Source: Deltaproteobacteria bacterium HGW-Deltaproteobacteria-14 (lineage in GTDB: Bacteria > Myxococcota_A > UBA9042 > PHBI01). Taken from it: 64,000 nucleotides of DNA. This document shows positions 10,308-31,296 of this stretch, piece by piece (position 1 is the stretch's first letter; the number at the start of each line of letters is the position of its first letter). The stretch is taken from positions 11,972-75,971 of the forward strand of contig PHBI01000002.1 of NCBI GenBank assembly GCA_002841945.1. Direction: 5' to 3'. The position numbers and the translations under genes were made by a program. The notes beneath the pieces are model-generated. The model saw nothing but the letters and a program-made list of their open reading frames with translations, did no database searches and was not told the DNA's origin.

Positions 10308-10447
10308 TGCGATTCCTCGGGGCTGCACGTCGCGACTCCTTGCCCTGGTCCGGCGGGCACCTTGTTCAGCACACCCCGACTCACTCGCTCCAACGGCTTC
10401 TACAAGCTCGACTACCACGATCCAAAGCAAGCCCTCAAGGGGAGCAC

Positions 10448-10464
10448 GGGGGGGCCATCCCCCC
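10448..10464 (-). terminator. G7-CCAT-C6 GC hairpin ~135 nt downstream of the helicase-cluster last gene; candidate terminator separating two operons
   Basis: gggggggccatcccccc at 10448-10464. No T-run, which is usual for high-GC genomes. Confidence 0.25.
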
Positions 10465-10598
10465 TCGCGAACGCTGGAAGGTGTCATGGGCGAGCGTCGC
10501 CAGGTCGCCGCCGACCGCGGCTTCAGGAGTCACCTGGGGCCGCAGGGCTCGGCCCGCCAATGCACGAGCGTGTCACATCCAGGCGTCGAACCGATAGT

Positions 10599-10985: not shown

Positions 10986-11004
10986 GTAGGGACCATTGAA
11001 CCGT

Positions 11005-13089
11005 TCAGGCGGAGGCGGGCGCGGGGGCGCGGAGCAGGTCGGCGAGGAATGGAGATGGCTCGCCGGTCCACGTGACCGTGAGGTCGTCGCGGGCGCGGGT
11101 CATAGCGACGTAGAGGAGGCGGCGCTCGCGAGCGATGGCGTCGTCGCGGTCCTGGGGGTCGGGCATGAGGAGCGCGCGGCGTGTCGGGAGGCGGTCGGCG
11201 CCGACGCCGTGGACGATCACGGCCTTGAACTCGAGCCCCTTGGCGTTGTGCATGGTGGTCATGCGAACGCCGGGGCGGTCATCGCGGGCGGGCTCGTTGG
11301 GGTCGAGGCGGCACACGTCGTGACCGGCGGCGAGGAGCGCGCTCTGAAGGGCGTTGAGCTCGGCGTGGGTGTGGGCGAATACCCCGATCTCTTCCTCGCT
11401 CGCGTGACCCGCGGCCAAGATGCGTGAGACGGTCTGGCAGGCGACGCGACGTTCCTCGGCGACGTTCGACGCGGGGACGAGGGACGGGTCGGGGCCGGTC
11501 ATGACGCTGCGGGTGCCGTGGCGGTCCTCGGTGCCCTCTTCGAAGTCGTCGACGGTGTGGCCGAGGACCTGCTCGGCGGCGCGGCGGATCTGATGGGTCG
11601 TCCGGTAGTTCACGCGGAGGACGCGGGAGCGGCCGCGGGTCTCGACGCCGAGGCGGACGAGGGAGAAGCCGCCTGGGTAGATGCGCTGGCCGGCGTCGCC
11701 GACGAGCATCAGGTGGCCCGGGTGCGCGGTGGTGAGAGCGACGAGGAGGCGGATGTCGGGGACCGAGAGGTCCTGGACCTCGTCGACGATGACGGCGGTG
11801 TAAGGGGAGTGCTGACCGGTAGCGAGCGCCTCGGCGGCGGCGGTGCTGAGCGTCGGGAAGGTGTATTCGTTGGCGACGCGCATCGCGGCGAGGAAGATGC
11901 TGAAGACCTGCCACAGCGCCTTTCGCTGAGCGGCGCCGAGGCCGGTGCCGCGGCCGATGCGGCGGGCGCTGCGGTACTCGGGCCAGGTGGTGATGCCCTG
12001 GGGCATGATGACGTGGTCGAGCTCGGCCTCGATGAAGTCGAAGGGCCACGGCACGGCGGGGGCGTCGGCGATGGCGCGGTGGAGGCGGGAGCGGACCTCT
12101 GCGTTCGTCGTGAGCAGGGTCGGCCGGCGCGATCCGGCGGCGTCGACGATGTCGTAGGCGATGGCCTTGACGGTGCGGACGACGATGCGCTCGCGGGTCG
12201 TGGCGTCACAGAGGAGGTCGAGGAGGCGTTCGACGCTTCGGCAGAGGGCCTTGGTGAACGACGTCAGGAGCACGCGCTCGCCCGTCTGGGCGAGGTAGTG
12301 GGCACGGTGTACTGCGACGATGGTCTTGCCGGTGCCGGCGCTGCCGCTGACCTTGGAAGGGCCGGAGAAGTCGCGGGCGACCATGTCGCGCTGGTCGGGG
12401 TGGAGGAAGGTGATCCAGGTTTCGAGCGGCGCGGCGAGGGCACGCGCGAGGGCGTCGGCGTCCTCGGGGGCGTAGAAGCGCCGCGAGAGGTCGGGCGCGG
12501 CGGTAACCGGCTGATCCGGGGCGATGGGGGTCGGAGGGACGACCAGATCGCCGAGGCCGAGATTGAAAAGGCGCTCGCTGACGTCGGGGGCGAGCGTGGG
12601 GTCGCAGCAGAGGGTGGCGAGATCGTCTTCGGACCTGACCTCGCGAGCGAGGGGCAGCCACTCGGGCGGGAGACCGAGAGACAGGAGGTAGTCGTCCGAG
12701 TGGGCCGCAAAGCGAGGCGGGTCCTGGGTGACCGTGCGGGTGATGACGCGTTCGCGGACGCGCTCGACCTCTTGGATGTCGACGATCTCGAAGGTGCCGG
12801 TCTGGACGTTGCGGCCGGTGCGGCGGCGCTCGGCCCAGCGGTAGGCGTCATCGTGGTGGTCGACGTGGAGTAGGAGCCAGTGGTCACCGTCCCGGTAGAG
12901 GATGGCGCGGAGATCCTGACTGATTCGGGCCGACCAGACGCCGTCGCCGTGGGGGTTCTGGACGCGGTGGAGCTGAATCCCCGGGTGGGCCGGGTTCTCC
13001 TGGAAACGGGCGATGAAGGCGTTGGCCTGTGCCTGCTCAGTGGCGGCGAGGGTGGCGAGTTGGGCGAAGAGGTCGCGTGAGAGGAGCAT
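11005..13089 (-). CDS. UvrD/PcrA-like SF1 helicase (694 aa) with RelE/ParE-toxin-like N-terminal domain
   Basis: Walker A GSAGTGKT and Walker B VIVDEVQDL. The N-terminal ~90 aa (ENPAHPGIQLHRV...VWSARISQDLRAILYRDGDHWLLLHVDHHDDAY) fits the RelE/ParE pattern (...YRiiYri.d..v.il.v.hR.d.Y). Confidence 0.8.
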   Translation of the reverse strand: MLLSRDLFAQLATLAATEQAQANAFIARFQENPAHPGIQLHRVQNPHGDGVWSARISQDLRAILYRDGDHWLLLHVDHHDDAYRWAERRRTGRNVQTGTFEIVDIQEVERVRERVITRTVTQDPPRFAAHSDDYLLSLGLPPEWLPLAREVRSEDDLATLCCDPTLAPDVSERLFNLGLGDLVVPPTPIAPDQPVTAAPDLSRRFYAPEDADALARALAAPLETWITFLHPDQRDMVARDFSGPSKVSGSAGTGKTIVAVHRAHYLAQTGERVLLTSFTKALCRSVERLLDLLCDATTRERIVVRTVKAIAYDIVDAAGSRRPTLLTTNAEVRSRLHRAIADAPAVPWPFDFIEAELDHVIMPQGITTWPEYRSARRIGRGTGLGAAQRKALWQVFSIFLAAMRVANEYTFPTLSTAAAEALATGQHSPYTAVIVDEVQDLSVPDIRLLVALTTAHPGHLMLVGDAGQRIYPGGFSLVRLGVETRGRSRVLRVNYRTTHQIRRAAEQVLGHTVDDFEEGTEDRHGTRSVMTGPDPSLVPASNVAEERRVACQTVSRILAAGHASEEEIGVFAHTHAELNALQSALLAAGHDVCRLDPNEPARDDRPGVRMTTMHNAKGLEFKAVIVHGVGADRLPTRRALLMPDPQDRDDAIARERRLLYVAMTRARDDLTVTWTGEPSPFLADLLRAPAPASA

Positions 13090-13491: not shown

Positions 13492-16400
13492 TCAGGGCCG
13501 AGACGTCAACTTCCGGATGTGGCGAGCCAGGTGCTTCTCGTAGAGGTCGGCCCGCACTTCGAAGCGGCAGACAGGACAGCGACCGAACCCGCCGGCGCTC
13601 GAGCTTCGGTCGAGCGGGTGGGAGGCGACGATGTGGCGCGCGAGCTGGGCCGTTCCCATTGGGGCGTTGCAGATAGGACACCCGGGGCCCACCGACCGCT
13701 TTGGGGTTGGCGCCCTGCCCTTCTTTGCGTGGCTCTTGGCCGGCGCCGCCGCTTTGACTGTGGGCGCGCGGGCGGGCAGTGCTGATGGCGTGGGGACCGA
13801 CGTTGTTGACTTCGGGGAAGGGATGCTCTCGAGCGGCGCGCCGTCGCCATCGGGCGGGCGGTCGGACTCGGCGACCAGGAGGCAACGATCGATGTCTTGG
13901 ATGATGCGCGTGAGCCTCGCGCCCTCGGTATTCGCGTCCGAACCTTTGCCGGACACCCAGAGCACCGAGCGCGCCCTGGTCATCGCGACATAGAGGTTCG
14001 TGGCGAGGATGCCGCCGGCTTTGTGCACGAACCCGTCGGCGCAGGCGACAGCGACAATCTCGGCGTCGTGCCCTTTGAAGGAGTGGGGTGTCGAGACCAC
14101 GATGGTGTCATCGCTCGAGGTCAGCTGTTCACTGGCCTGGGCGATGATCTTGGCGCCCGCGCGCTTCACCACGGGAGTAAGGGTGGCCTCGATCTTGCCG
14201 CAGTGGGAGAGCCTGTTGGCGATGATCCGTATGTCGCGCGGGCGGACACCCTCGTTGCGAATCCACTTCTCGATCTGCTGGCCGAGCGTCTCCAGCTCGG
14301 CATCCCGGGAACCGAACAGCTCGACCTGAGGCCGAGGCCCGTCGACGTGGCAGAACCTGACCCGCCACCACGGACGCTTGCCGGCGTGACCCTCTACGAC
14401 GAGGCCACGCTCGAGCAGCTCGCGATGGTCCGGGTCTTCACGCGGTGGGAGAAGCCGGTACAGCAGATTGAGCGCAAACTCGGTGATGGGCCGCGTCGAA
14501 CGAAAGCTTTCCTTCATGACCGTGGAGCGGCCTCGCATGTCGATCCCGAGGTCTGACCACTGGGGCGTCCCGCGTCCGTAGATGTTCTGGGCGTTGTCGA
14601 AGAAGATCACCGCTTGCCGCCGGTTGCTAGCCGAGTCGACCGGCTTCACGAGTTGGTGGAGCAAGCGGAGCGTCTCAGGGCCCATGTCTTGGCCTTCGTC
14701 GACGAACACGGCGTCGCACAAGGGCTTTGGTCTGCCGACGTTCGTGAGGTAGCGGGCCGCCTGGGTGTTGTAGTCGAAGGGATCACCCCGATAGTAGACC
14801 CCCGCGGCCTGCATCAAGAGCCCAAGAAGCTCCTTGATGTGAAAGTACGAGACTTGCTTCGTGGCTGGGTCGAGGCCACGCACCCGCAGGGCGTCGCTGA
14901 CCATGCCGTCGAGCAGGCCCTTCAGGGCTGCGTTTCCGTACACGATCCACAGCGCGCCACGCGGCTTCTCTTCGAGCGTCCGCGCGACCCAGGATGCCAT
15001 GACGACCGTCTTCCCGCTGCCCGCGACGCCGCGCACGAGGCGCGGGCCGCCGTCCATCCTCATGTTGCAGAGGCGCTCCTGCTCCGCGCTCAACAGCCTC
15101 AGCATGGAGCCCCGGTCGTCGAGCTGGGCGCCGAGCGTGGTGGGGTCCGACGCGCGGACCTTGGCCGAGGGTTCGTGGGCGACTTTGGCGGGCACGGCCT
15201 CCCAACGCGTTCGAGGGCCGCGGCCGCGGAGAACGCGCGGAGCGATGTGGTCGACGAGGGAAGCGAGGAATGGTTGCTGCATCTCGTCGCGACTCGCGAT
15301 GAGAAGCACGACCTGCTTGGCGCGGCTCAAGCCGACATTGACGAGTCGCATCCACTCGTGCGTGGGCCACGCCGTGCTCGACGCGTGCACCGTGTCGAAG
15401 ATCACGTAGTCGGCCTCGGCACCTTGCTGAGCATGGATCGTTGACGCCCGCCAGTGGTCGCGGGCGACGGGGTGGTTCGCCAGCCACTGACGGATCTCGC
15501 GCCCCTGGGCGACGAACGGCGACACGAAGAGCCCCGGTCCGCGCGCGAGCTTCGGGTGCGCGTCGAACACTTGGCGGAGCACATCGATGGTCATCGGCCG
15601 GTGCCAACTGCCGCCGCGTTCGGGGCGCTGCGCGCGGAAGGCGGCCGGGGACGATGCCTCTTCGTCGAGGACGTACCACAAGGCCCGAGGCTGCGACTTC
15701 AAGAGAGGATCGAGGTCGGCGCCGGCGGCGACCGCTGGGATCGGTGGGGCGTCCTCGAGCCGGCCGTCGTACTGGTAGTTGGACACGAGTTCGCGGATCT
15801 GAGGCGCCATACGCCACTGCGCGGTGAGCATCACCGTCGACGATGTGAGCGTCGTGGGCGTGAGGTGTGCGAGACTGCTCTCTCCAAGCCACCGCATCCT
15901 GCGCGGTACTTCGACGCGCGCCACGCGAGAGATCGGCGCGAGTTGTCGGGGGTCCCCGACAAGGATGACGCGGGTGCCCGCGTGGAGGGCGAGCGCTGCC
16001 GTGGCAGCTCTCGAGACCAACCCAGCCTCGTCGATGATAACCGTCGAGAAAGGCGGCGGGCCCCCCATCACCGGAGACTGTTCAGCGTCGGCGAGGATCT
16101 GTACTGCCTTGAAAGCGGTCGCAATGACGACCTGGTGTCCGGGATCGAAGAGCGCCAGGTCGGCTTCCCGGAGCTGCTTGCGTAGCGCCTCGATTTCTCG
16201 CTTGATCGCGGCGCGCTCCTCTGGTCGCGTTACGCGGTCCAACTCACGGCGCTTCGCGTTCAGCTCGGCGCGGATTGCGGTTTCGCCGCCGTCGAGGAGC
16301 TCCGTCGCGTCCGCGGCGCGGTAGCGCGTGAGGTCGGCACCGGCGCCAATCCGAAGGACCCTCGTGAGATCCGCCTTCTGTGACCTGCGACGCATCGCGC

Positions 16401-17103
16401 CAACGATACTCAGAGCGGCGCCATCGGTAGCCTTGTTCGTCGTGGAGACGACCAGAATGCGCTCGCCGGACCGCGCGGAGGCAGCCGCGACGAGCTCCCC
16501 GAGGCTGTGGGTCTTGCCGGTCCCGGGCGGACCCCAGAGCACGGTCCAGCGGTGCCCCCAAAGCGGCTCGAGCGCAGGCACTCCGAGACGCGATGCTGGA
16601 ACTGAGACAGCCGGGACCGTGCCAGCCGAGAGGCCGAGCGCCGCCCCGATGAGCCCCGCAGGTCCCCGTCCGGCCTGCTGATAGACCTCATGGAGGAACC
16701 GCGTGAACTCGAACGGCTTGACGATGAAGTCGCCGGGCGTCGGCGCGCCCGAACCGTCCTTGAGACCGATGAAGATGTCCCCAGCGTCGGCATCGATTTC
16801 ATAGACCGTCCCGCTCCATGCGTACCGGGACGCCTCGAAGGAGCCGGGACCGGCGATGTCATCGAAGTCCAAGGGGCGAAACGCGAAGCCCCCCTCCCAA
16901 CTCGAGTCGAGCTCGACGCGCCCGACGTGGACGCGGACGATGCTCTGGTCGGTCACGAGCGGGCGATCCACGCGGTGAGCGGCGATTCGAAGGCTCCGGC
17001 TACATACCCGATGTTCCGCGGCGACCGCGTCGCGTGCCTCGGCGAACCAAGTCGGACCAGCTTCGTGTCGGTGCGATGGTCTCCGGCTCGTCGACATCGC
17101 CAT
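13492..17103 (-). CDS. 1203-aa tandem SF1 helicase: Upf1/DNA2-like (AAA_11/AAA_12) core followed by UvrD-like core, with two C-terminal C2H2-like zinc fingers
   Basis: First core: GPPGTGKTH ... VIIDEAGLV ... VILVGDPRQLAPI. Second core: GVAGSGKTVV ... VFVDEGQDMG. C-terminus: CPICNAPMGTAQLARHIVASH and CPVCRFEVRADLYEKHLARH (C-x2-C-x11-H-x3/5-H). Confidence 0.8.
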   Translation of the reverse strand: MAMSTSRRPSHRHEAGPTWFAEARDAVAAEHRVCSRSLRIAAHRVDRPLVTDQSIVRVHVGRVELDSSWEGGFAFRPLDFDDIAGPGSFEASRYAWSGTVYEIDADAGDIFIGLKDGSGAPTPGDFIVKPFEFTRFLHEVYQQAGRGPAGLIGAALGLSAGTVPAVSVPASRLGVPALEPLWGHRWTVLWGPPGTGKTHSLGELVAAASARSGERILVVSTTNKATDGAALSIVGAMRRRSQKADLTRVLRIGAGADLTRYRAADATELLDGGETAIRAELNAKRRELDRVTRPEERAAIKREIEALRKQLREADLALFDPGHQVVIATAFKAVQILADAEQSPVMGGPPPFSTVIIDEAGLVSRAATAALALHAGTRVILVGDPRQLAPISRVARVEVPRRMRWLGESSLAHLTPTTLTSSTVMLTAQWRMAPQIRELVSNYQYDGRLEDAPPIPAVAAGADLDPLLKSQPRALWYVLDEEASSPAAFRAQRPERGGSWHRPMTIDVLRQVFDAHPKLARGPGLFVSPFVAQGREIRQWLANHPVARDHWRASTIHAQQGAEADYVIFDTVHASSTAWPTHEWMRLVNVGLSRAKQVVLLIASRDEMQQPFLASLVDHIAPRVLRGRGPRTRWEAVPAKVAHEPSAKVRASDPTTLGAQLDDRGSMLRLLSAEQERLCNMRMDGGPRLVRGVAGSGKTVVMASWVARTLEEKPRGALWIVYGNAALKGLLDGMVSDALRVRGLDPATKQVSYFHIKELLGLLMQAAGVYYRGDPFDYNTQAARYLTNVGRPKPLCDAVFVDEGQDMGPETLRLLHQLVKPVDSASNRRQAVIFFDNAQNIYGRGTPQWSDLGIDMRGRSTVMKESFRSTRPITEFALNLLYRLLPPREDPDHRELLERGLVVEGHAGKRPWWRVRFCHVDGPRPQVELFGSRDAELETLGQQIEKWIRNEGVRPRDIRIIANRLSHCGKIEATLTPVVKRAGAKIIAQASEQLTSSDDTIVVSTPHSFKGHDAEIVAVACADGFVHKAGGILATNLYVAMTRARSVLWVSGKGSDANTEGARLTRIIQDIDRCLLVAESDRPPDGDGAPLESIPSPKSTTSVPTPSALPARAPTVKAAAPAKSHAKKGRAPTPKRSVGPGCPICNAPMGTAQLARHIVASHPLDRSSSAGGFGRCPVCRFEVRADLYEKHLARHIRKLTSRP

Positions 17104-18034: not shown

Positions 18035-20731
18035 GTGAGTGAAAGCAACCCAAGCGAAGCCACCATCCCAACCGCGGCAGCGCTTCGCCAACCCAGCATG
18101 ACCGGCACAGCGGCCGCGATGATAATCATCATCGTGCTGGTCGGCGTGGTGACCTTCGCATCAGGTCATTCGCTCATCGCGTCGCTTGTTGACGCGATGT
18201 CGAGCCCCGTGACGTGGGTGGTCTTCGCACTCGTGGTTTCGCTCGCGCTGGTGGGCGGGCACCTGCGAGGCCGGGGCCACCTTGCCGCGAAAGGAGTCGT
18301 GACGACCGCGAGGAGGATCGCCCGGCAACACGAACCAGCGGACGCGGACAGAGGGATCCCTCCTATCAAGCTCGATTCATTCGAGAGTGAGATCACCGAG
18401 CCGTATCTCATCGGGGTCTGGAAGGAATTCCGACGGAGTCTCGTGGACCGCGATGGGCGCTACTTCAAGGTCATGGACGCGAGCCGCTTCTTCGAAGACG
18501 ACGGGCTCGCGAGCGCCATCAAAGGGAGCGTGTGGCGGGCCGAGCCCAGCTACTCCTTCATCCACGAGTTGCCGGGCTTCATGGTCGGCCTCGGAATGCT
18601 CGGGACCTTCATTGGTATCGCCGTTGGGCTCGGACAACTCCAAGGGGTTGCGCAGGACGGCCAAGGCTTAGCCGTCGAGGGAGTGCAGAAGATCGCGCAG
18701 CACAGCACAGCCATCGTCGACAAGATTCCAAGCGTGATCGCTGGACTCGCGTCGGCGTTTTGGACGAGCATAATCGGCCTCATCGGGGCATCCCTGATGA
18801 CGTGGTTCAACCACAAGTCGGATAGTGCCCTGGGCAGCGCAATGGCGCTCTTTCGCCTCGAGCTCGACCGGTGCATCCCGCGGTCGAGCCAAGAGTTCTT
18901 CCTACGTCAGCAGACCTCGGCTCTACGAGAGATCAAGGACCTCCACGAGCAGGCGAATGACTTTCTTGGCGAAATGACGAACGATCTCGCAGACGAGATC
19001 GCGCGCGGCACTGGTGAGGTCATCGTCGGGCAGCTCTCCCCGATCCTGCACGGCATCGAGCGGGCCGTCAGAGAACAGATCGAGAACGCGGCTGTGCGCT
19101 CCGAGGACATGCTCCTTGCGCTCGTCGAGGAGCTGAAGGACAAGTTCGTAGCCGGATTGGACAACAGCGTCACCAAGATGGCGGCCCAGAACGAGCAGAT
19201 GACGAGCGCGTTCTCAGCGGTGACGCGCGACCTCGAGACGCACGTCGCAGGTGCGGTCTCCACATTCAGAGAGGGGATCGAGGGCGCCGGCGAGCACATG
19301 AACAAGGTGTTCGGCGAGACCTCGGACGCGTTCGCGGCAAAGCTCGGAGACGCGTCGACGGCGGTCGCCGAGTCACTCGGGGACAGCTCCAAGGCTCTCG
19401 CCAGCACGCTTGGCGTGGCGTCGAGCTCGTTGGCGTCATCGCTGGGCGACACATCTACCGCGTTCGCGAAGACGCTCGGCGAGTCCTCGAACGCCGTTGC
19501 GAACACGCTCGGGACGGCGTCGAGCTCGCTCGCTTCCTCGCTCGGGGACACCTCCAGGGCCTTCGCCAACACGCTCGGCGAATCCTCGAGCGCCGTTGCG
19601 AGCTCACTCGGGACGGCGTCGAAAGCATTGGCATCCTCACTCGAGAGTACGTCGAGCGCCTTCTCCGACAAGCTCAGCGAGGCTTCCGCCAATGTCGCAA
19701 CGTCGCTCGCGAGCGCTGCGACGAGCATGGCAGAGACCCTCGATGGTACAGTTGCCCGCGTCCGCGATGGGGTCTCCGACCTCGGAAGCCAGATGACTGA
19801 CGCGCTCACCGAGGCGACGACGGCAATGCGTCGGGGAATCGAAGGCGCACTGACGCCCCTCGAAGCCACCCTGCATACGCTCTCCGACGTCGTTGGCGCG
19901 CTTGGCGAGCAAGCGAGGATCCACGTCGACCTCCTCGAGCGCCACCAAACCACGGCTACGACCATGGGCGAGGCCGCGGAGAGGATAGCGCCCGCCCTCG
20001 AGTCCATCGTCGGTAGCCACCGCGAGTTGGCGTCGACGGTCCGCTCCCTCGAGCTGTTGTTCGACGAGCTCAGGACCACGCGAGACGCGCTCGCGGTCGT
20101 ACCCGGGGAGATTCGCGCTGGCCTCGGCGCCGCGACCGCGGAGCTGGCTGGAGCCGCGAACTCGCTGGCACCTGTGGCGGCCCAACTCGAGCGCTGGGGC
20201 GCGACCGTAGGCGAGTCACTCGAGGCACTCGAGAAGCAGGCCCAACTCCAACGCGAACAGCTCGAACAGCAGCGCGCAGCGACGAGGGAGCTCGGAGTTG
20301 TCGTCACGTCGTTCACGCCTGCGCTGAAGCAGGTCATTGGCTTCACGCAACAGCTCGAGGAGGTCGTCACGAGTATGGACGACGGGCTGGCCGAGCTCGC
20401 CGCCACACGCGGGACTCTCGAGAAGACGAACCTCGCGATCACGACCGGCCTCCGAACAGCGAGCGCGAACCTCAACGCCACAGCCGCTGGCCTCGGCCCT
20501 CTGACGGTGCAGATGCAGCGTTGGGCTGAAGCCAGCGGGAAGTCCCTCGAGGTGTTCGGCGCTACCATGCATGCGCACCTGCGCGATGCGCTGTCCGCGT
20601 TCGATGGCGCGCTGAGCGAGTCGGTTCGAGGGTTGGCGGAGGCCGGGGAGGAACTCATCGGAGTCGCCGACCGGATCAGCTTGCGGGTCGAGAGCATCGA
20701 GCGTTCAAACCCGCCACCGCGAGCCGCATAG
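18035..20731 (+). CDS. zorA: ZorA (MotA/TolQ/ExbB-like proton-channel subunit with ~600-aa repetitive tail), type I Zorya
   Basis: N-terminal TM helices. MotA/ExbB channel signature LPGFMVGLGMLGTFIGIAVGL. Long C-terminal tail of 11-residue repeats (SLGDTSxAFAxTLGESSxAVA...). Followed by a MotB-like gene. Confidence 0.8.
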   Translation: MSESNPSEATIPTAAALRQPSMTGTAAAMIIIIVLVGVVTFASGHSLIASLVDAMSSPVTWVVFALVVSLALVGGHLRGRGHLAAKGVVTTARRIARQHEPADADRGIPPIKLDSFESEITEPYLIGVWKEFRRSLVDRDGRYFKVMDASRFFEDDGLASAIKGSVWRAEPSYSFIHELPGFMVGLGMLGTFIGIAVGLGQLQGVAQDGQGLAVEGVQKIAQHSTAIVDKIPSVIAGLASAFWTSIIGLIGASLMTWFNHKSDSALGSAMALFRLELDRCIPRSSQEFFLRQQTSALREIKDLHEQANDFLGEMTNDLADEIARGTGEVIVGQLSPILHGIERAVREQIENAAVRSEDMLLALVEELKDKFVAGLDNSVTKMAAQNEQMTSAFSAVTRDLETHVAGAVSTFREGIEGAGEHMNKVFGETSDAFAAKLGDASTAVAESLGDSSKALASTLGVASSSLASSLGDTSTAFAKTLGESSNAVANTLGTASSSLASSLGDTSRAFANTLGESSSAVASSLGTASKALASSLESTSSAFSDKLSEASANVATSLASAATSMAETLDGTVARVRDGVSDLGSQMTDALTEATTAMRRGIEGALTPLEATLHTLSDVVGALGEQARIHVDLLERHQTTATTMGEAAERIAPALESIVGSHRELASTVRSLELLFDELRTTRDALAVVPGEIRAGLGAATAELAGAANSLAPVAAQLERWGATVGESLEALEKQAQLQREQLEQQRAATRELGVVVTSFTPALKQVIGFTQQLEEVVTSMDDGLAELAATRGTLEKTNLAITTGLRTASANLNATAAGLGPLTVQMQRWAEASGKSLEVFGATMHAHLRDALSAFDGALSESVRGLAEAGEELIGVADRISLRVESIERSNPPPRAA

Positions 20732-20742
20732 CGAGGACGTGA

Positions 20743-21882
20743 ATGGGACGCCGGAGAGGTCAGCCCCTGTGGCAGAGCTACGCCGACCTGGCGATGGGGC
20801 TCATGGCGGTGTTCGTTCTGATTCTGGTCATTCTCCTGTGGGACCAGAACAGGCTCACGACCGACTTAGCTCAATCGAAGGAGCGGGCCGAGCAGGCACT
20901 CGAGGATGCGATGAAGCAACGGCAGCTCACGGAAGAGGCGCTTGAGTCCGTGACTCTCGAGAGGGCCGCGCTCGAGTCCGAGCGAGGGACCTTCGCCATT
21001 GAGCTGATGGAGCTGTTCGAAACGACGTACGACCTCGTACTCGCTCAGGATAACGCAGAGAACTGGCTCACTGCGGTCTTCGAGGAGGGCGACTGCCGGT
21101 TACGTATGACTGAGCGAGGTGAGCTGGTCATCGCGACGCCGGACGGCGGACGGGCTGCGGCCAGTCTGTACGAGTCGGGGCAGTTCGTCCTCAGCGTTGA
21201 GGGTCGTCAGGCGCTGCTCACGTGTCGGGACAATTTCCTGAAGCTCGCGCACTGTCTCACCCCCGAGGACAACGTCCCCGAGGCGGTGAGTGAGAGGCGC
21301 AAGCGGCTGTGCCCCGGTGTTGGGGTCCACAGCCTCGACATGGCTGTCCCGGTCTTGCGGGCGGGGATCGAGGCGCTCGTCCTGGAAGGAAACACCGACC
21401 AGATCCCGCTCGGAGGCGGTACCCCGAGCATCCGGGCCGGCGGCTACGGGGTGACTTACCCCACACCCGTGGCGCTGAGCTTCGTCGAGAACGCCTACCT
21501 TGGTGCGGAGCGGGCTCGGCAGGCGCTCGGGAACCTCATCGCGTTGGTCGCAGACGCGAATGAGGACCAGTGGGACGCGCTCGAGGTGATGATGAGCCGC
21601 GTCCGGATCGAGAGTCCGAGTTTCGGCCGCTTCCAGGCCGGTCCCCAAGAATGGCGGGAAGCAGGATGCGAGGGACCCGGGAGTTGCGCGGCGGCGCGGA
21701 ACCTGGCGCTCCGCGTACGGTGGCAGAAGCGTGCCCTCCGCCGGCCGTTCGAGCTCGTCCGTGAGCGGATCTGCGGGTTGCTCGTGACGCCCGACTCCTC
21801 GTTCGCAAAGGGACTCCTGAGCCAAGGACACACCCTCTTAGCCGAGCGCGAGCGCTTCGGCTGCCCGGAGACCGTCCCGTGA
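20743..21882 (+). CDS. zorB: ZorB (MotB-like stator subunit with single TM and periplasmic domain)
   Basis: N-terminal YADLAMGLMAVFVLILVILL has a conserved Asp at the MotB-like TM start. Gene sits 11 nt after zorA. Size 379 aa. Confidence 0.7.
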   Translation: MGRRRGQPLWQSYADLAMGLMAVFVLILVILLWDQNRLTTDLAQSKERAEQALEDAMKQRQLTEEALESVTLERAALESERGTFAIELMELFETTYDLVLAQDNAENWLTAVFEEGDCRLRMTERGELVIATPDGGRAAASLYESGQFVLSVEGRQALLTCRDNFLKLAHCLTPEDNVPEAVSERRKRLCPGVGVHSLDMAVPVLRAGIEALVLEGNTDQIPLGGGTPSIRAGGYGVTYPTPVALSFVENAYLGAERARQALGNLIALVADANEDQWDALEVMMSRVRIESPSFGRFQAGPQEWREAGCEGPGSCAAARNLALRVRWQKRALRRPFELVRERICGLLVTPDSSFAKGLLSQGHTLLAERERFGCPETVP

Positions 21883-23120
21883 CATCGTTGCCACCCATCC
21901 CGACGCTCGCGACGTTCTCGCTACCTCGGCCCGTCGGACTGCGGCGCCTGAACCAGCGTGTTTTCCGGGGAGCCGGCGTGAAACCGCGGCCGTCGCAGCT
22001 CGAGCAGGCGCGCAAGCTGCTTGCCAGCGCGAAAGCAGGCGCACAGGTCGAGGTGACGTCGTCGGTGCTGTGCCGATGTCTCGTGTACATCCTCGGGGAA
22101 CGCCCAGACGACACGGAGCGTGACCTCATCGGGAGGCTCGTTCTCGGTTCACCACACGCGCGAGCCCGAGAACTGCTCGCGCTGTGGGAGAACGTGCCAT
22201 CGCGGCGCGCCGCGATCGCTGTGGCGCTCTCGTCGGCGCTCGACGCTCGCTCACGCCCTTTTGTGATGCCCGACTGGTTGCCCCGCACCGAACCCGAACG
22301 GCGCAGAGCCCTGGTAGCCCCGCATGCGTTCTGCCTTCGAGGGCTCGAGCGTAATCTTGGTTCCATCGACACCGTCGGGGACAGACTCGGCGTCGTCCTG
22401 CACAGCAGACTCGGCCATGAGCTCCTATTGCACGCGTTGGTGCACGGCTCTGACCGGTTCTGGGGGGCCCTTGGGTCCCCACTTGAGCTGCGAGAATGGG
22501 CTCGCCCCCGCGACACCCGAACCCAAGCGGCCATTGCGGACCGCCAACTCGTCGCCATTGGGCGCGGCGTAACCGCACCATACAACCTCCCGGATGACGC
22601 CGAGACCAAGCACCTGACCGAATGGGTCTTCTCGACGCTCCGATCGCCGGACACTCACGCTGCGCGCTGGGACGGCGTGTCCGATCGGGGGCGTGAGGTC
22701 TTCGACTGGCTGCTCATCCGAGATGAGATTGTCAAGATTCTCGCGCTCTTTGAGCAGCAGGCGACGCAGTCGGACCGGGGGGAGTTCTGGAAGAAGCAAG
22801 CGCACCGGATCCGCGACGCACGCTTCGTGGACCTTGATGAGATGGCGGTCTGTCTGATCGTGATTGGGGAGACCCTGGTCGTCGAGTTCGGAGACTACGC
22901 CAACGCGGGGTACGTGTACGGAGTGCCCGCGCATTCACCGTCGGTGAGGCGGCCAGCGAACCTTCCAAATAGGGCGGGGAGCTTCAAGCAGCGTGGATAT
23001 CACCTGAAAATCGGAGCGGTCGTGTACCCGTTCAAGGACCGGATCATCCACGCGGGGGACTGGCAGACGCGGACCGGACAGGCCATCGCACAGTGGGCGG
23101 CAGGGTGGAGCCGGCGGTAG
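21879..23120 (+). CDS. zorC: ZorC candidate (413 aa), by position between zorB and zorD
   Basis: Start overlaps the zorB stop (ATGA). No motif recognised by eye. Assignment is by synteny of type I Zorya (zorABCD). Confidence 0.45.
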   Translation: MTSLPPIPTLATFSLPRPVGLRRLNQRVFRGAGVKPRPSQLEQARKLLASAKAGAQVEVTSSVLCRCLVYILGERPDDTERDLIGRLVLGSPHARARELLALWENVPSRRAAIAVALSSALDARSRPFVMPDWLPRTEPERRRALVAPHAFCLRGLERNLGSIDTVGDRLGVVLHSRLGHELLLHALVHGSDRFWGALGSPLELREWARPRDTRTQAAIADRQLVAIGRGVTAPYNLPDDAETKHLTEWVFSTLRSPDTHAARWDGVSDRGREVFDWLLIRDEIVKILALFEQQATQSDRGEFWKKQAHRIRDARFVDLDEMAVCLIVIGETLVVEFGDYANAGYVYGVPAHSPSVRRPANLPNRAGSFKQRGYHLKIGAVVYPFKDRIIHAGDWQTRTGQAIAQWAAGWSRR

Positions 23121-23133
23121 TTGGCTGCTGAAG

Positions 23134-26100
23134 GTGGAGGATTGCGTGAGTTCCTACGACCAGCGTGGCGTACACCTTGAACTTTCAGGGGTGCCGCTCT
23201 CCACAGTGGCAACCGCGGCGCTGCGTGACGAGGGCTTCATTCCGTGGCGCGTCGCTCTCTCCGTGCTCGACGAAGCGTGCGACCTGAACGAGGTTTCGGC
23301 CCGGCTTTCGGCGCTCGACGGGACGTTCTCCGAGGAAGACCGCTCCGCGCTCGAGGCGCCTCTGGCCCAGCTCATGCCTCCCACAGTGCCCATGACCCTG
23401 TCGGTAGCCGTTCGTGGGGTGGCAGGACGGACTCGCTACGCGCTCTTAGGCGAGTGGGTAGGCCGGGATGGCTACCGAGTTGACCCGCCACCCGAGCGGC
23501 TGTCACCGGGGATCGTCCGGTGGCGGGAGTCCGACTGGCGCATTACCGCATCACAACTGGAGGTACTCGACTCGCTCGACGGCGTCGAGGGGCTGGGAGC
23601 AAATCGAAGCACCGACCTGGCGCACACCGAGCGGGTGACGTCGGCGGTGCTCGGCGGCGATGCCTCGGTAACACTCGGGCCAGGCTTGCGGTCTAGTCGG
23701 TTCGTTCGCGTCGACGCTGTGGCACCGATGTTTGCCCAGGCCGCACCAGGACGATATCGCATGATGCCAACGGTCGAGGGCATCACAAACGAGACGCTGT
23801 GGGGACAACTGCGGCGGAGCCGCGGGGCCGAGCAGGTGGTGTCGTACCGAGACCCAGATGGCGTCGCAACGAGAGTCGTCTTCACGAGTCGCGCGCAGGC
23901 CGCGATTGCAGATGTCCGCCGCGAAGCCGCACAGATGCTCACGCCACGTCGGGTCGCGCAGATCATGACGCGGCCACAAGACATCCTCGGAGAGAACCTC
24001 GACCTCTCCGGCTTGTCGGAGCGGGTGACGGGCTTCGGCCCGGTGGTGCTCGACGTGAGCTTCGAACCAGGCGAACTCGGCGGACGGGACTGGTGGGACT
24101 TCGACACAACTCTCGTGCTCGACGATGGAGTCGACACGTCGCTCGCCCTCGATCTGAGGGACGAGAACGTCGTACGCACCCTGGAGACCGCTATCGCTGC
24201 GGCGGACGCCGACGGCTCGGCCTTTATCCCGTGCCCCAACCGGGACGCGCTCATGCCGCTGACTGCGCTCCTACGCCAGGCAGTGGCCACGGCACGCGAA
24301 CGCCTGGATGGACTCAAGCCGGAACGGGCGGAGCCACAAGGTTTTCAGATCATCTACAACATCGAGGAGCTCGAGTTCGAGCAGTCGGAGGTAACGCCGG
24401 GCGGAACACCTCCGAGGAAGCCGCGGGGGCTGGCGCCAGGGTTCGAACTCCACGACCACCAGTTGGTCGGATTCTCATGGTTGCATGCGCTCGCGACGGC
24501 GCCAGGGGGCTCGCGGGGGGCGTTGCTCGCCGACGACATGGGGCTCGGGAAGACGCTTCAGGTCCTCGCGCTGCTCTCGGACATGCTCGAAGGGGGGCGT
24601 CCCGGCCCCCATCTGGTCGTTGGACCAGTCGCCGTTCTGACCAACTGGATGAGGGAGGCACGGCGGTTCTTCCAGGAACGACTGCCGTGCCTGCAAATCC
24701 AAGGTCAGTTCCTGCGCGGTGCGTCGCCGGCGATGTCCGCATCCGCACTGCAAACCCAGCGCGTCGTCGTCGCGAGCTACGAGACCCTACGCGTCAACGA
24801 GATCGCGTTCGCGAAGGTGAAGTGGGACACCGTCATCCTGGACGAAGCCCAGAAGGCGAAGAACCCAACGACCCAGATCGCTCGCGTCTTGAGGACGCTT
24901 CAAGCGCGCTTCCGGCTCGCCGTGACGGGTACCCCTGTCGAGAACAGCCTACGAGACCTGTGGACTCTGTACGACTGGGCTGTACCCGGTCTGCTTGGGC
25001 CACTCCGACAATTCCGTACCCGCTTCATGAAACCACTCGGCGACGGCGCGGATAGCGTGCAGCGCCGGGTACTCGCCGACGAGCTAACGAGCACGATCAA
25101 GCCGGTCTTCATGCGACGGCTCAAAGAAGACGCGCTCCAGGGGCTACCACCGATCCACCGGCACGACCACGTCGTCCCGCTCTCGCATGAGCAGGAACTC
25201 ATGTACGCCGCCGTCATCCGGTCGGTAGTTGACGGACGCGAGAAGCCCCTGGGGAGCCTCCCGCGGTTGTTCGGGATGTGCGCGCATCCAGACCTGACTC
25301 CGTGGTTCGACGACCTCCGTGCGCTTGCGGCGAGTTCTTTCCCAAAGGGTCAGAAGCTCTTCGAGCTCCTGGATGACGTCGCGGCGCGCGGCGAAAAGGC
25401 GCTTGTCTTCGCGAACCGGAAGGCCGTCCAACGTTGGATCGCGGACGAAGTCGCTCGCCGATACCAGGTTGCACGGCCTTTCGTTATCAATGGTTGCCTC
25501 GATGACTCGGCCGAGCGGTTGAGGCTCGTCGACTTGTTCCAGAGCCGCCCGGGCTTCGGGTGCATCGTCTTGGCTCCGCGTGCGGCCGGCGTTGGCCTCA
25601 ACATCACGGCGGCAAACCACGTCATCCACTACATGCGCGAGTGGAACCCCGCGGTCGAGAACCAGGCGACGGACCGCTGCTACCGCATTGGGCAGGTCCG
25701 CCCAGTCCATGTGCACACGATAACCGCACGTTCGCCGCGCGGCGTGACGGTCGAGGAGCGACTCGCGGAGCTACTCGAGGCCAAGCGCCGGCTGTTCGCC
25801 GACTTCATCGTGCCGCTTGGCGATGTTGAGGTCGCCCAAAGCGACCTGGTCAACACGGAGGGCTGGGACGAGACGACGGTGGACGGCGACGCAGATCTGT
25901 TCACCGACGCGATGTGGCCAGTTTTACGCTCGGTGCTCGAAGCCGACGCATCGATGCGCGCTGAGCCGCCCTGCGAACACCTCGATGGAGGCCGCGTGAT
26001 CGGGCTCGACGACGGGACCCTGTTCGCAGGCACGAAGGTGGTCCGGCTCGTCGATGGGACCCGCAGGGACGCGGACCGCCTCGAAGCGGCGCTCCGCAAG

Positions 26101-26181
26101 AAGGGGGAGTCAGTGGAGGTGGTGGATACGCGACATCCGACACTCGCGGCGCGGGCGCTGGGGCGTGCGCTGACGTGCTGA
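23134..26181 (+). CDS. zorD: ZorD (SNF2-like helicase, 1015 aa, helicase core in C-terminal half)
   Basis: LADDMGLGKTLQVLAL, VILDEAQKAKN, LAVTGTPVENSL and helicase-C motifs. ~430-aa N-terminal extension. Last gene of the zor operon. Confidence 0.7.
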   Translation: MEDCVSSYDQRGVHLELSGVPLSTVATAALRDEGFIPWRVALSVLDEACDLNEVSARLSALDGTFSEEDRSALEAPLAQLMPPTVPMTLSVAVRGVAGRTRYALLGEWVGRDGYRVDPPPERLSPGIVRWRESDWRITASQLEVLDSLDGVEGLGANRSTDLAHTERVTSAVLGGDASVTLGPGLRSSRFVRVDAVAPMFAQAAPGRYRMMPTVEGITNETLWGQLRRSRGAEQVVSYRDPDGVATRVVFTSRAQAAIADVRREAAQMLTPRRVAQIMTRPQDILGENLDLSGLSERVTGFGPVVLDVSFEPGELGGRDWWDFDTTLVLDDGVDTSLALDLRDENVVRTLETAIAAADADGSAFIPCPNRDALMPLTALLRQAVATARERLDGLKPERAEPQGFQIIYNIEELEFEQSEVTPGGTPPRKPRGLAPGFELHDHQLVGFSWLHALATAPGGSRGALLADDMGLGKTLQVLALLSDMLEGGRPGPHLVVGPVAVLTNWMREARRFFQERLPCLQIQGQFLRGASPAMSASALQTQRVVVASYETLRVNEIAFAKVKWDTVILDEAQKAKNPTTQIARVLRTLQARFRLAVTGTPVENSLRDLWTLYDWAVPGLLGPLRQFRTRFMKPLGDGADSVQRRVLADELTSTIKPVFMRRLKEDALQGLPPIHRHDHVVPLSHEQELMYAAVIRSVVDGREKPLGSLPRLFGMCAHPDLTPWFDDLRALAASSFPKGQKLFELLDDVAARGEKALVFANRKAVQRWIADEVARRYQVARPFVINGCLDDSAERLRLVDLFQSRPGFGCIVLAPRAAGVGLNITAANHVIHYMREWNPAVENQATDRCYRIGQVRPVHVHTITARSPRGVTVEERLAELLEAKRRLFADFIVPLGDVEVAQSDLVNTEGWDETTVDGDADLFTDAMWPVLRSVLEADASMRAEPPCEHLDGGRVIGLDDGTLFAGTKVVRLVDGTRRDADRLEAALRKKGESVEVVDTRHPTLAARALGRALTC

Positions 26182-31253: not shown

Positions 31254-31296
31254 CCAGACAGGAGGCCACAGGGCCGCATCGAGGCCCGTCGCGGTG

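What the first reader, a model, noticed from the sequence alone, without database searches (positions are those of the whole stretch)
19370..19745. ZorA tail built from 11-residue (hendecad) repeats encoded by ~99-bp tandem DNA repeats
ESLGDSSKALASTLGVASSSLASSLGDTSTAFAKTLGESSNAVANTLGTASSSLASSLGDTSRAFANTLGESSSAVASSLGTASKALASSLESTSSAFSDKLSEASANVATSLASAATSMAETL is at least 11 consecutive 11-aa units. At the DNA level, two adjacent ~99-bp blocks (about 19441-19539 and 19540-19638) are near-identical.

Published structural work on E. coli ZorAB reports that the ZorA tail is a long coiled-coil-like fibre whose length is functionally important. Here the tail is longer than E. coli's, and the tandem DNA repeats offer a ready mechanism for tail-length variation by recombination or slippage in 33-aa steps.
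Basis: partly seen in the sequence, partly recalled or inferred. Interest (0 to 1): 0.55.

Follow-up and report, generated by a model that had tools for sequence, protein, structure and literature searches.

The report
Old in-phase duplications lengthen ZorA tail
The repeat is real and lies in the long helical tail of ZorA, the membrane motor protein of a Zorya anti-phage system, but the DNA copies are old and only 60-78% identical, so this records past tail lengthening by duplication and is not a ready switch for changing tail length.

Summary
Window 18035-26181 (+) is a diverged type I Zorya operon, zorABCD, inside a defence island.

**The repeat.** The flagged tract lies in the ZorA tail. 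It has 13 recognisable 11-residue units (aa 426-568). The consensus is L-G-(D/E)-(A/T/S)-S-x-A-(F/V/L)-A-x-(S/T). A 33-aa super-period arises because position 8 cycles through L, F and V.

**Helix register.** The tract sits inside about 200 aa (aa ~388-597) of unbroken 11/3 hydrophobic periodicity. That segment is flanked by ~3.75 periodicity proximally and heptads distally. Most of the ZorA homologues profiled share this order.

**The DNA copies are not near-identical.**
- The best 99-bp pair shares 77/99 nt.
- The longest shared exact run is 16 bp.
- dS is 0.76 and dN/dS is 0.17.

So the duplication is old and selectively maintained, not a ready slippage substrate.

**Source of the extra length.** The nearest orthologous operon has a 683-aa ZorA. 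All extra length here lies between two conserved anchors. It comes from the hendecad expansion plus a second, older ~108-aa distal duplication.

**Limits.** No close relative exists, so within-species length polymorphism is untestable. Three assemblies carry identical DNA.

**Family pattern.** Across the family, the longest ZorAs carry internal mid-tail duplications. One has a 186-bp unit, 2.3 copies, at 93% matches.

**Verdict:** new member of a known kind, of modest interest.

The parts
18035..20731 (+). zorA: a MotA/ExbB-like membrane domain followed by a long helical tail. It is 898 aa from the GTG at 18035. The NCBI gene call starts at the ATG at 18098 and gives 877 aa (PKN59376.1).
   Evidence: PADLOC ZorA1 E=1.4e-25. 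PDB ZorA chains 8vvn_C E=5e-4 and 8qyy_A E=7e-3. 473 homologues at E<=1e-3 with the N-terminal 425 aa as query. Cluster members of 877 and 898 aa.
19196..19825 (+). Unbroken hendecad-register segment of the tail, aa ~388-597, about 19 units.
   Evidence: The hydrophobic period is 3.64-3.68 in 99-aa windows starting at aa 346-511. The phase of the 11/3 component stays between -29 and -71 degrees from aa 388 to 586 and drifts on both sides of that range.
19310..19738 (+). Thirteen recognisable 11-aa units, aa 426-568. Consensus: a=L, b=G, c=D/E, d=A/T/S, e=S, g=A, h=F/V/L, i=A, k=S/T.
   Evidence: Unit listing and per-position counts. Lag-11/22/33 identity is 0.41/0.45/0.61, reached by 0 of 5000 shuffles.
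19409..19507 (+). 99-bp / 33-aa super-unit, copy 1 (LGVASSSLASS LGDTSTAFAKT LGESSNAVANT).
   Evidence: Against copy 2: 77/99 nt, 27/33 aa, dN 0.13, dS 0.76.
19508..19606 (+). 99-bp / 33-aa super-unit, copy 2 (LGTASSSLASS LGDTSRAFANT LGESSSAVASS).
   Evidence: TRF period 99.
19607..19705 (+). 99-bp / 33-aa super-unit, copy 3, more diverged (LGTASKALASS LESTSSAFSDK LSEASANVATS).
   Evidence: Against copy 2: 66/99 nt, 20/33 aa. Against copy 1: 59/99 nt.
19310..19408 (+). Older, register-shifted relative of the super-unit (FGETSDAFAAK LGDASTAVAES LGDSSKALAST).
   Evidence: 60-65/99 nt and 16-17/33 aa against copies 1 and 2.
19946..20224 (+). Distal-tail module, copy A (aa 638-730). It is absent from the nearest homologues.
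   Evidence: Local alignment with aa 746-839 scores 125, against 37 +/- 7 for 200 shuffles (shuffle maximum 80), with 32/93 aa identical. This stretch faces a gap in all six aligned homologues.
20270..20551 (+). Distal-tail module, copy B (aa 746-839). This is the copy that aligns with the single module of the homologues.
   Evidence: The invariant columns L806, W830 and F841 lie near or in this copy.
20743..21882 (+). zorB, 379 aa, MotB-like.
   Evidence: PADLOC ZorB3 E=2.9e-7 and ZorB1 E=1.3e-6, matching the N-terminal ~90 aa only. No Pfam hit. 63% identical to the gene after zorA in L001.
21879..23120 (+). zorC-like gene, 413 aa.
   Evidence: PADLOC ZorC1 (EH signature) is weak: E=1.5e-4 with no stretch passing on its own. 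41% identical (E=5e-101) to the L001 gene that carries a weak PF15611 EH_Signature hit.
23134..26181 (+). zorD, 1015 aa, SNF2-family helicase.
   Evidence: PADLOC ZorD1 E=4.7e-149. Pfam SNF2-rel_dom E=1.3e-51 and Helicase_C.

Best explanation
The tract is the middle of the cytoplasmic tail of ZorA in a diverged type I Zorya (zorABCD) anti-phage system.

**What the tract is.** By analogy with the E. coli ZorA5B2 structure, five ZorA tails bundle into one long helical fibre. In this stretch the helices carry an 11-residue (11/3) repeat. Leu sits at position a, Ser or another small residue at d/e, and F/V/L at h. That periodicity gives a nearly straight or slightly right-handed bundle.

**How it arose.** The sequence-level repeat comes from old tandem duplications of a 33-aa, 99-bp unit. 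A unit is three hendecads, which is exactly nine helical turns. Each added unit therefore lengthened the fibre by about 5 nm (inferred) without shifting the hydrophobic seam. A second, older duplication of a ~108-aa distal module also contributed. Together they make this tail about 100-210 aa longer than in its nearest relatives, an inferred total length of roughly 85-95 nm.

**What it is now.** The copies have since diverged mostly at synonymous sites while the protein pattern was kept. The tract is therefore a selectively maintained structural spacer, not a hypermutable length switch.

**Shown versus inferred.** Shown here: gene identity, operon order, periodicity, repeat anatomy, DNA divergence, and where the extra length lies. 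Inferred: pentameric bundling, supercoil handedness, physical length, and any role of the extra length in signalling to ZorC and ZorD.
For: **Identity and operon**
- ZorA, ZorB, a ZorC-like protein and ZorD match PADLOC models in the canonical order on one strand.
- An orthologous operon exists on L001. Its ZorB is 63% identical and its ZorC 41%.

**Periodicity**
- Normalised spectral power at period 11/3 is 29.9 for aa 426-568, and about 0.2 at period 3.5.
- The phase of the 11/3 component is constant over aa ~388-597.
- The AlphaFold2 monomer model is helical through the whole tail, with low confidence.

**Published reference**
- The EcZorA tail is a pentameric, right-handed coiled coil about 70 nm long.
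- Its core rings are L250, L254, L258 and L261. Their 4-4-3 spacing sums to 11 (PMC11946911).

**Repeat age**
- The closest pair shares 77/99 nt and 27/33 aa, with dS 0.76 and dN/dS 0.17. The longest exact run is 16 bp.

**Location of the extra length**
- The A407-to-L806 segment is 399 aa here and 187-300 aa in six homologues.
- The other four inter-anchor segments vary little by comparison. The two C-terminal ones are identical in all seven sequences, and the two proximal ones differ by at most about 26 aa.
- The second duplication scores 125, against 37 +/- 7 for shuffles.

**Family context**
- The same order of periodicity (~3.75, then 3.67, then 3.5) appears in most of the ZorA homologues of at least 550 aa that were profiled.
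- Protein length correlates with internal-repeat score (Spearman 0.42, p=3e-6).
- The 12 longest of 116 homologues all exceed the shuffle maximum.
Against: - No structure or multimer model of this tail exists. The monomer AlphaFold2 model has pLDDT of only 40-60 in the tract.
- The tract is 26% Ser and 22% Ala, with Gly in 10 of 13 units and few charged residues. That is unusual for a soluble coiled coil, so a less regular or more flexible conformation cannot be excluded.
- The 'e' core position is Ser in 12 of 13 units, which is odd for a hydrophobic lumen.
- Homology to E. coli ZorA is weak (E=7e-3, N-terminal part only).
- The Pfam ZorA-like family PF28082, present in relatives, did not reach E<=1e-3 for this protein.
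- Low rates of slippage between 13-16-bp exact repeats cannot be ruled out from sequence alone.
Confidence: 0.8

Rival explanations
1. One reading: the 99-bp tandem repeats are an active contingency locus. Recombination or replication slippage between copies would generate ZorA tail-length variants in 33-aa steps within populations.
For: - The unit is in frame and spans exactly nine helical turns, so gain or loss would be structurally tolerated.
- The array did arise by such steps.
- Another type I zorA (L003) carries a much younger 186-bp repeat, 2.3 copies at 93% matches. Duplication therefore does recur in this gene family.
Against: - Copies are only 52-78% identical at DNA level.
- The longest perfect match is 16 bp. 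From general knowledge, that is below the ~20-30 bp usually needed for efficient RecA-dependent exchange.
- dS is 0.76, and 12 of 18 differing codons are synonymous. The copies have evolved independently for a long time without gene conversion.
- All three assemblies whose DNA I compared are identical.
Confidence: 0.07
2. The tract is a low-complexity Ser/Ala/Gly-rich flexible linker or disordered region. Its 11-residue periodicity would then be a by-product of DNA duplication, not a structural constraint.
For: - The composition is S 26%, A 22%, T 10%, G 7%, with a Gly in most units.
- AlphaFold2 confidence is low.
Against: - The hydrophobic phase runs on unbroken into non-repetitive flanks on both sides, aa 388-425 and 569-597.
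- The non-repetitive orthologue P0004, and many other homologues, show the same 3.67 periodicity at the same position.
- dN/dS is 0.17, with near-invariant L, S and A at positions a, e and i. That indicates selection on the pattern.
- The model is helical throughout.
Confidence: 0.08
3. The protein is not a ZorA but an apolipoprotein-like or Mce/MlaD-like lipid-binding protein. The Pfam hits and the JGI name 'MlaD' point this way.
For: - Pfam Apolipoprotein E=2e-17, ApoLp-III E=4e-8, Mce4_CUP1 E=5e-7.
- The JGI product name is 'ABC-type transporter Mla subunit MlaD'.
Against: - All these hits fall below the curated Pfam cut-offs: 64 against 90 bits, 34 against 36.3, and 29.9 against 32.6. They cover only the repetitive tail.
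- The N-terminal 425 aa retrieve ZorA/MotA-like proteins.
- The gene sits in a zorABCD operon.
Confidence: 0.02
4. The repeat number is an assembly artefact of short-read metagenome assembly.
For: The sequence comes from metagenome-assembled genomes.
Against: - The copies differ at more than 20% of positions, so they are unambiguous even for short reads.
- Contigs from NCBI GCA_017973775.1 and JGI 3300038334 match the window with 0 mismatches over 6.6 kb.
- The reading frame is intact and the helix phase is preserved.
Confidence: 0.02

Closest known systems
E. coli type I Zorya ZorA (PDB 8QYD/8QYY; Hu et al., Nature 2024, PMC11946911)
   Same: - MotA/ExbB-like membrane domain followed by a very long all-helical tail.
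- zorABCD gene order.
- The published tail is a pentameric coiled coil with right-handed supercoil, and its core Leu rings are spaced 4-4-3, summing to 11 residues. This matches the ~3.67-3.75 periodicity found here.
   Different: - Sequence similarity is weak (E=7e-3, N-terminal region only).
- The protein here is 898/877 aa against 729 aa.
- Here the mid-tail carries a recognisable 13-unit hendecad array with a 33-aa super-period, and the distal module is duplicated.
- The paper does not use the words hendecad, heptad or 11-residue. No paper in the library combines ZorA with hendecad.
- ZorB here is 379 aa and has no Pfam OmpA hit.
Nearest orthologous operon: Logan contig SRR12358675_849769 (L001), ZorA P0004
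   Same: - Same operon order.
- ZorB is 63% identical, ZorC 41%, and the ZorA N-terminal domain 40-43%.
- Hendecad periodicity lies at the same tail position.
   Different: - This ZorA is 683 aa.
- The segment between the conserved anchors is 187 aa, against 399 aa here.
- TRF finds no tandem repeat in its tail; the only repeat in the gene is a 12-bp array near the 5' end.
- It has a single distal module.
Type I zorA with a young tandem duplication (ENA scaffold NGUY21-1..._5002, L003, P0076)
   Same: - Canonical zorABCD operon.
- The internal tandem duplication lies in the ~3.65-periodic mid-tail and lengthens ZorA to 780 aa.
   Different: - The unit is 186 bp (62 aa), present in 2.3 copies at 93% DNA matches. 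It is far younger than the window's 99-bp copies.
- It is only distantly related to the window protein (E=2.3e-8 on the N-terminal domain).
Hendecad (11/3) coiled coils and 11-mer amphipathic-helix repeat proteins (apolipoproteins A1/A4/E, apolipophorin III)
   Same: An 11-residue periodicity of apolar positions, which explains the sub-threshold Pfam hits.
   Different: - All such hits are below the curated cut-offs.
- The context is a membrane-anchored motor protein, not a lipid-binding protein.
- Positions d and e are small or polar (A/T/S, S) rather than forming a broad apolar face.

Membership tests
Zorya type I system (zorABCD) | ZorA has a MotA/ExbB-like membrane domain matching ZorA profiles. 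| tested here: met
   PADLOC ZorA1 PDLC00601 E=1.4e-25, covering 128-751; 18 ZorA models hit. PDB ZorA chains hit weakly. The Pfam ZorA-like_t1 family PF28082 was not among hits at E<=1e-3, although relatives carry it.
Zorya type I system (zorABCD) | ZorA has a long C-terminal all-helical tail. | tested here: met
   About 610-630 aa lie after TM3. The AlphaFold2 monomer is helical from aa ~314 to 870 in 877-aa numbering, at low pLDDT. Strong helical periodicity runs throughout.
Zorya type I system (zorABCD) | An adjacent ZorB (MotB-like) has an N-terminal TM helix and a peptidoglycan-binding domain. | tested here: inconclusive
   PADLOC ZorB3/ZorB1 E=3e-7/1e-6, matching the N-terminal ~90 aa only. 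There is no Pfam OmpA hit. By eye the C-terminal part has an OmpA-like 'NTD...N..LG..RA' pattern, which was not tested. It is 63% identical to the ZorB of L001.
Zorya type I system (zorABCD) | ZorC carries the EH signature domain. | tested here: inconclusive
   PADLOC ZorC1 E=1.5e-4 with no stretch passing on its own. No Pfam hit. It is 41% identical (E=5e-101) to the L001 protein, which has a weak PF15611 hit on record.
Zorya type I system (zorABCD) | ZorD is an SNF2-family helicase. | tested here: met
   PADLOC ZorD1 E=4.7e-149. SNF2-rel_dom E=1.3e-51 and Helicase_C E=5.6e-13. There is no Mrr_cat hit here, unlike the ZorD of L003.
Zorya type I system (zorABCD) | Gene order zorA-B-C-D on one strand. 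| tested here: met
   18035-20731, 20743-21882, 21879-23120 and 23134-26181, all on the + strand.
Zorya type I system (zorABCD) | Anti-phage activity and ZorA5B2 stoichiometry. | not testable with these tools
   This needs expression, phage assays and cryo-EM, or a multimer prediction. Only single-chain prediction was available.
Hendecad (11/3) coiled coil | Hydrophobic periodicity of 3.67 residues with apolar a and h positions and small d/e positions. | tested here: met
   The power peak lies at 3.66-3.68 in 99-aa windows starting at aa 379-511. a=L in 12/13 units, h=F/V/L/M in 13/13, d=A/T/S, e=S in 12/13. The phase is constant over about 200 aa.
Hendecad (11/3) coiled coil | Parallel bundle with a straight or right-handed supercoil. 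| not testable with these tools
   This is inferred from the EcZorA structure (PMC11946911). No oligomer model was made.
Contingency (hypermutable tandem-repeat) locus | Repeat copies are near-identical at DNA level. | tested here: not met
   Identity is 52-78% between 99-bp units. The longest exact run is 16 bp. dS is 0.76 for the closest pair.
Contingency (hypermutable tandem-repeat) locus | Copy number varies among closely related strains or within a population. | tested here: inconclusive
   Two further assemblies are identical to the window over 6.6 kb, but they may derive from one population. No other close relative was found. No reads were available.
Apolipoprotein A1/A4/E (PF01442), ApoLp-III (PF07464), Mce4_CUP1 (PF11887) | Score at or above the curated Pfam gathering threshold. 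| tested here: not met
   64 against 90 bits, 34 against 36.3 bits, and 29.9 against 32.6 bits.

The most novel reading that the evidence does not exclude
ZorA tails may share a conserved three-zone helical architecture.
- The proximal part has a periodicity of about 15/4 and the middle part 11/3. Both imply a right-handed or straight bundle.
- The distal part is heptad, implying a left-handed bundle, so supercoil sense would switch near aa ~600-620 here.
- The 11/3 middle zone would act as an evolvable ruler that grows by tandem duplications spanning whole numbers of helical turns. The window's 33-aa unit is one instance; units of 29, 40, 51, 62, 84 and 91 aa occur in other ZorAs.

If the ZorAB motor turns the tail, a handedness junction would respond asymmetrically to torque. 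That could be where motor activation is converted into a signal for ZorC and ZorD. Tail length would then be tuned per lineage.
Probability: 0.25. Interest if true: 0.55.

Novelty: new member of a known kind. Interest (0 to 1): 0.33.

Why it matters
Zorya is a recently solved anti-phage system. How the 70-nm ZorA tail passes a signal to ZorC and ZorD is still open, and the published full-length tail is an idealised model beyond its first 56 residues.

This locus is a natural long-tail variant whose extra length can be assigned to two specific duplications. It suggests precise constructs: removing or adding 33-aa units (nine helical turns each) would test whether defence depends on tail length or only on tail integrity.

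The family-wide periodicity pattern and the recurrent mid-tail duplications, if confirmed structurally, would refine the uniform right-handed tail model.

The specific claim of a ready length-switching mechanism does not hold, so the locus itself is mostly ordinary.

Tried and rejected
**Searches for closer relatives, to compare repeat number. All failed.**
- The word-indexed protein search with the full ZorA returned only itself and two distant hits. With the N-terminal domain it returned nothing above 40% identity.
- The exhaustive HMMER search of 1.84 billion representatives gave a nearest relative at 43% identity.
- GTDB genome contigs held only distant relatives.
- JGI metagenome contigs gave nothing, either by protein patterns or by a degenerate 38-nt DNA pattern.
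- The 90% cluster holds only the two start-codon variants of the same protein.

**Other attempts**
- A seed-based direct-repeat finder found no family in 19000-20100 because the copies are too diverged.
- I tested whether duplication unit lengths are whole numbers of local helical turns. I reject this as evidence, because a sequence repeat of length L forces spectral peaks at L/k by construction.
- I tried to obtain the full E. coli ZorA tail sequence through PDB searches. Only its N-terminal ~410 residues aligned to the queries used, so the E. coli tail periodicity was not computed directly.
- The AlphaFold2 monomer gave only low-confidence support for helicity, and I ran no fold search on it.
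- I did not examine the antisense ORF 18907-20697 (596 aa). I take it to be a by-product of high G+C.
Full report
**Locus and context**

The finding lies in the 898-aa ORF 18035-20731 (+). NCBI calls the same gene from the ATG at 18098, giving 877 aa: PKN59376.1, a 'hypothetical protein' of the MAG Deltaproteobacteria bacterium HGW-Deltaproteobacteria-14.

PADLOC profiles identify it as ZorA (ZorA1, E=1.4e-25). The next three genes on the same strand are:
- ZorB (20743-21882; E~1e-6 to 3e-7, N-terminal part only);
- a ZorC-like protein (21879-23120; weak EH-signature match, E=1.5e-4);
- ZorD (23134-26181; E=4.7e-149; Pfam SNF2 plus Helicase_C).

This is the canonical type I order. An orthologous operon on Logan contig L001 has ZorB 63% identical, ZorC 41% and the ZorA N-terminal domain 40-43%.

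The neighbourhood is a defence island. It holds a 1203-aa double-helicase fusion (13492-17103, -), a UvrD-type helicase, an SNF2 helicase next to a 1788-aa protein with no Pfam match, a GmrSD restriction enzyme (26400-28352, -) and a type I R-M specificity subunit (31455-33104, -).

**Checking the observation**

The quoted peptide is encoded at 19370-19741. Written in 11-residue register, 13 units are recognisable from aa 426 to 568 (nt 19310-19738).

The consensus by position is:
- a = L (12/13)
- b = G (10/13)
- c = D/E
- d = A/T/S
- e = S (12/13)
- g = A
- h = F/V/L
- i = A (12/13)
- k = S/T

Position h cycles L, then F, then V. That produces a 33-aa super-period.

Self-identity is 0.41 at lag 11, 0.45 at lag 22 and 0.61 at lag 33, against about 0.11 at other lags. 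None of 5000 shuffles reached these values. TRF finds a 99-bp period, 2.1-2.2 copies, at 77-83% matches.

The statement that two 99-bp blocks are 'near-identical' does not hold:
- In codon register, the best pair (19409-19507 vs 19508-19606) shares 77/99 nt and 27/33 aa. It has 12 synonymous and 6 non-synonymous codon differences.
- The other compared pairs among the four 99-bp units share 52-66/99 nt.
- The longest exact shared run is 16 bp.
- Nei-Gojobori estimates for the best pair are dS=0.76, dN=0.13 and dN/dS=0.17.

**What the tract is structurally**

A Fourier analysis of hydropathy gives a sharp peak at 3.67 residues (11/3) for aa 426-568. Normalised power is 29.9, against about 0.2 at 3.5.

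In sliding windows the tail shows three regimes:
- about 3.72-3.76 for windows starting at aa 280-313;
- 3.64-3.68 for windows starting at aa 346-511;
- 3.50-3.54 (heptad) for windows starting at aa 577-742.

The phase of the 11/3 component is flat from aa ~388 to ~597 and drifts on both sides. The sequence repeat is therefore embedded in about 19 hendecads of continuous register that extend into non-repetitive flanks.

A single-chain AlphaFold2 model is helical through the entire tail, but with pLDDT of only 40-60 there. It gives only weak support.

The published E. coli ZorA5B2 structure describes a pentameric coiled-coil tail with right-handed supercoil, pitch 328 A, about 70 nm long. [quoted passage not shown] Its core rings L250, L254, L258 and L261 are spaced 4-4-3, which sums to 11 residues (PMC11946911).

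The paper does not use the words hendecad, heptad or 11-residue. No paper in the library pairs ZorA with hendecad.

**Where the extra length comes from**

I aligned the protein with its six best homologues of 650-761 aa. Essentially all of the length difference falls between two invariant anchors, A407 and L806:
- 399 aa here;
- 187 aa in P0004;
- 267 aa in P0005;
- 300 aa in P0006;
- 209 aa in P0007;
- 212 aa in P0010;
- 205 aa in P0002.

The other four inter-anchor segments vary little by comparison. The two C-terminal ones are identical in all seven sequences, and the two proximal ones differ by at most about 26 aa.

Two insertions account for the difference:
- **The hendecad array.** P0004 has diverged, non-repetitive hendecads at that position, and TRF finds no tandem repeat in its tail. 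The only repeat in that gene is a 12-bp array near the 5' end.
- **A duplicated distal module.** It spans aa 638-730 and 746-839, with 32/93 aa identical. The alignment score is 125, against 37 +/- 7 for shuffles.

By a uniform rule (TM3 motif plus 30 residues), the tail here is 629 aa. That ranks 79th of 81 homologues, whose median is 426 aa. E. coli's tail is 507 aa by the paper's definition.

At 1.4-1.5 A per residue this implies about 85-95 nm. That figure is an inference.

**Is it a ready length-variation mechanism?**

Historically yes, today probably not.

A 33-aa unit is exactly nine turns at 11/3, so the expansions were in phase. But the copies now differ at 22-48% of nucleotides, mostly at synonymous sites in the closest pair. 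There is no sign of homogenisation, and perfect matches reach only 13-16 bp. From general knowledge, efficient RecA-dependent exchange needs roughly 20-30 bp of identity. I did not test this here.

The same DNA, with 0 mismatches over 6.6 kb, is present in contigs from NCBI GCA_017973775.1 and JGI 3300038334. No copy-number variant is on record. These assemblies may sample one population, however, so this is weak evidence.

No relative closer than about 43% identity exists in any collection searched.

**Family view**

Most of the ZorA homologues of at least 550 aa that I profiled show the same order of periodicities along the tail: ~3.75, then ~3.67, then 3.5, then ~3.6 at the very end.

Tail length correlates with the extent of the 3.58-3.72 zone (Spearman 0.31). 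It does not correlate with the heptad zone (-0.07).

Internal duplications in the mid-tail are common. Examples are:
- P0089: lag 84, 52% identity;
- P0088: lag 91;
- P0076: lag 62;
- P0063: lag 73;
- P0079: lag 51.

Protein length correlates with internal-repeat score (Spearman 0.42, p=3e-6). The 12 longest of 116 homologues all exceed the shuffle maximum.

One caveat applies to that null. Shuffling destroys helical periodicity, so short-lag scores just above it (lags 7, 11, 18) may reflect periodic composition rather than duplication.

P0076 sits in a canonical zorABCD operon. Its zorA has a 186-bp unit, 2.3 copies, at 93% DNA matches. That is a far younger event than the window's.

Duplication is therefore a recurrent route to longer ZorA tails, and the window is one old instance of it.

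**Rivals**

- **Disordered low-complexity linker.** This is disfavoured by phase continuity into the flanks, by the same periodicity in non-repetitive orthologues, and by dN/dS of 0.17.
- **Apolipoprotein or Mce/MlaD identity** (Pfam hits and the JGI product name). These rest on sub-threshold hits to the repetitive tail only.
- **Assembly artefact.** This is unlikely given the divergence between copies and the identical independent contigs.

**Verdict**

- The identification as a ZorA tail with hendecad periodicity is correct.
- The proposed ongoing length-switching is not supported.
- The locus is a new, diverged, long-tailed member of type I Zorya.
- The more interesting lead is family-wide: zoned periodicity with a possible handedness switch, and an evolvable 11/3 middle zone. 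It needs multimer modelling or cryo-EM.

Noticed in passing
window 19946-20224 and 20270-20551 (+): A second, older duplication lies in the ZorA tail. Distal module aa 638-730 resembles aa 746-839: 32/93 aa identical, score 125 against 37 +/- 7 for shuffles, offset about 108 aa. The first copy has no counterpart in the six nearest homologues.
   Followed up: yes
window ~19830-19900 (ZorA aa ~600-620); also P0002-P0150: Hydrophobic periodicity along the tail changes from ~3.75 to 3.67 to 3.5 (heptad), then to ~3.6 at the C-terminus. Most of the ZorA homologues profiled show the same order. This implies a change of supercoil sense that the idealised, uniformly right-handed published tail model does not contain.
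   Followed up: partly
L003:6492-6923 (ENA scaffold NGUY21-1_SAMN17524320_METAG-scaffold_5002): Another type I zorA (P0076, 780 aa, canonical zorABCD operon) carries a young tandem duplication in its mid-tail: 186-bp unit, 2.3 copies, 93% matches. Other long ZorAs (P0089, P0088, P0063, P0080, P0079) have 51-98-aa internal repeats.
   Followed up: partly
window 20743-21882 (+): ZorB is unusually long (379 aa) and has no Pfam OmpA hit. Only its N-terminal ~90 aa match ZorB profiles. The L001 orthologue (367 aa) is 63% identical over the full length, so this is a conserved divergent ZorB type whose periplasmic domain is uncharacterised.
   Followed up: partly
window 21879-23120 (+): The ZorC-like protein is 413 aa, has only a marginal EH-signature match, and lacks about 85 N-terminal residues present in the 503-aa L001 orthologue. 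Its start overlaps the zorB stop by 4 nt.
   Followed up: partly
window 23134-26181 (+): ZorD (1015 aa) has strong SNF2 and Helicase_C matches but no Mrr_cat nuclease-domain hit. The ZorD of L003 does have one.
   Followed up: no
window 13492-17103 (-): Divergently oriented from zorA is a 1203-aa protein. It fuses an AAA_11/AAA_12 (MkoA-like, E=1.5e-40) helicase to a UvrD-type helicase that matches the PADLOC 'NERD+UvrD' model C3a187. It ends in a sub-threshold zinc-finger-like match (zf-Di19, 22 bits against a 27.5 cut-off) and a basic low-complexity region.
   Followed up: no
window 344-13089 (-) and 26400-33104 (-): Defence-island context. An SNF2 helicase (6970-10221) lies next to a 1788-aa protein (1594-6960) and a 417-aa protein (344-1597), neither with any Pfam match. 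Also present are a UvrD helicase (11005-13089), GmrSD type IV restriction (26400-28352) and a type I R-M S subunit (31455-33104).
   Followed up: no
window 18035 vs 18098: The start codon is ambiguous: GTG at 18035 gives 898 aa and ATG at 18098 gives 877 aa (the NCBI call). Both versions are on record. JGI names the protein 'ABC-type transporter Mla subunit MlaD', which looks like a misannotation driven by the repetitive helical tail.
   Followed up: partly
window 18907-20697 (-): A 596-aa antisense ORF spans most of the zorA tail. It is presumably a by-product of high G+C and repetitive Ser/Ala codons. I did not examine it.
   Followed up: no
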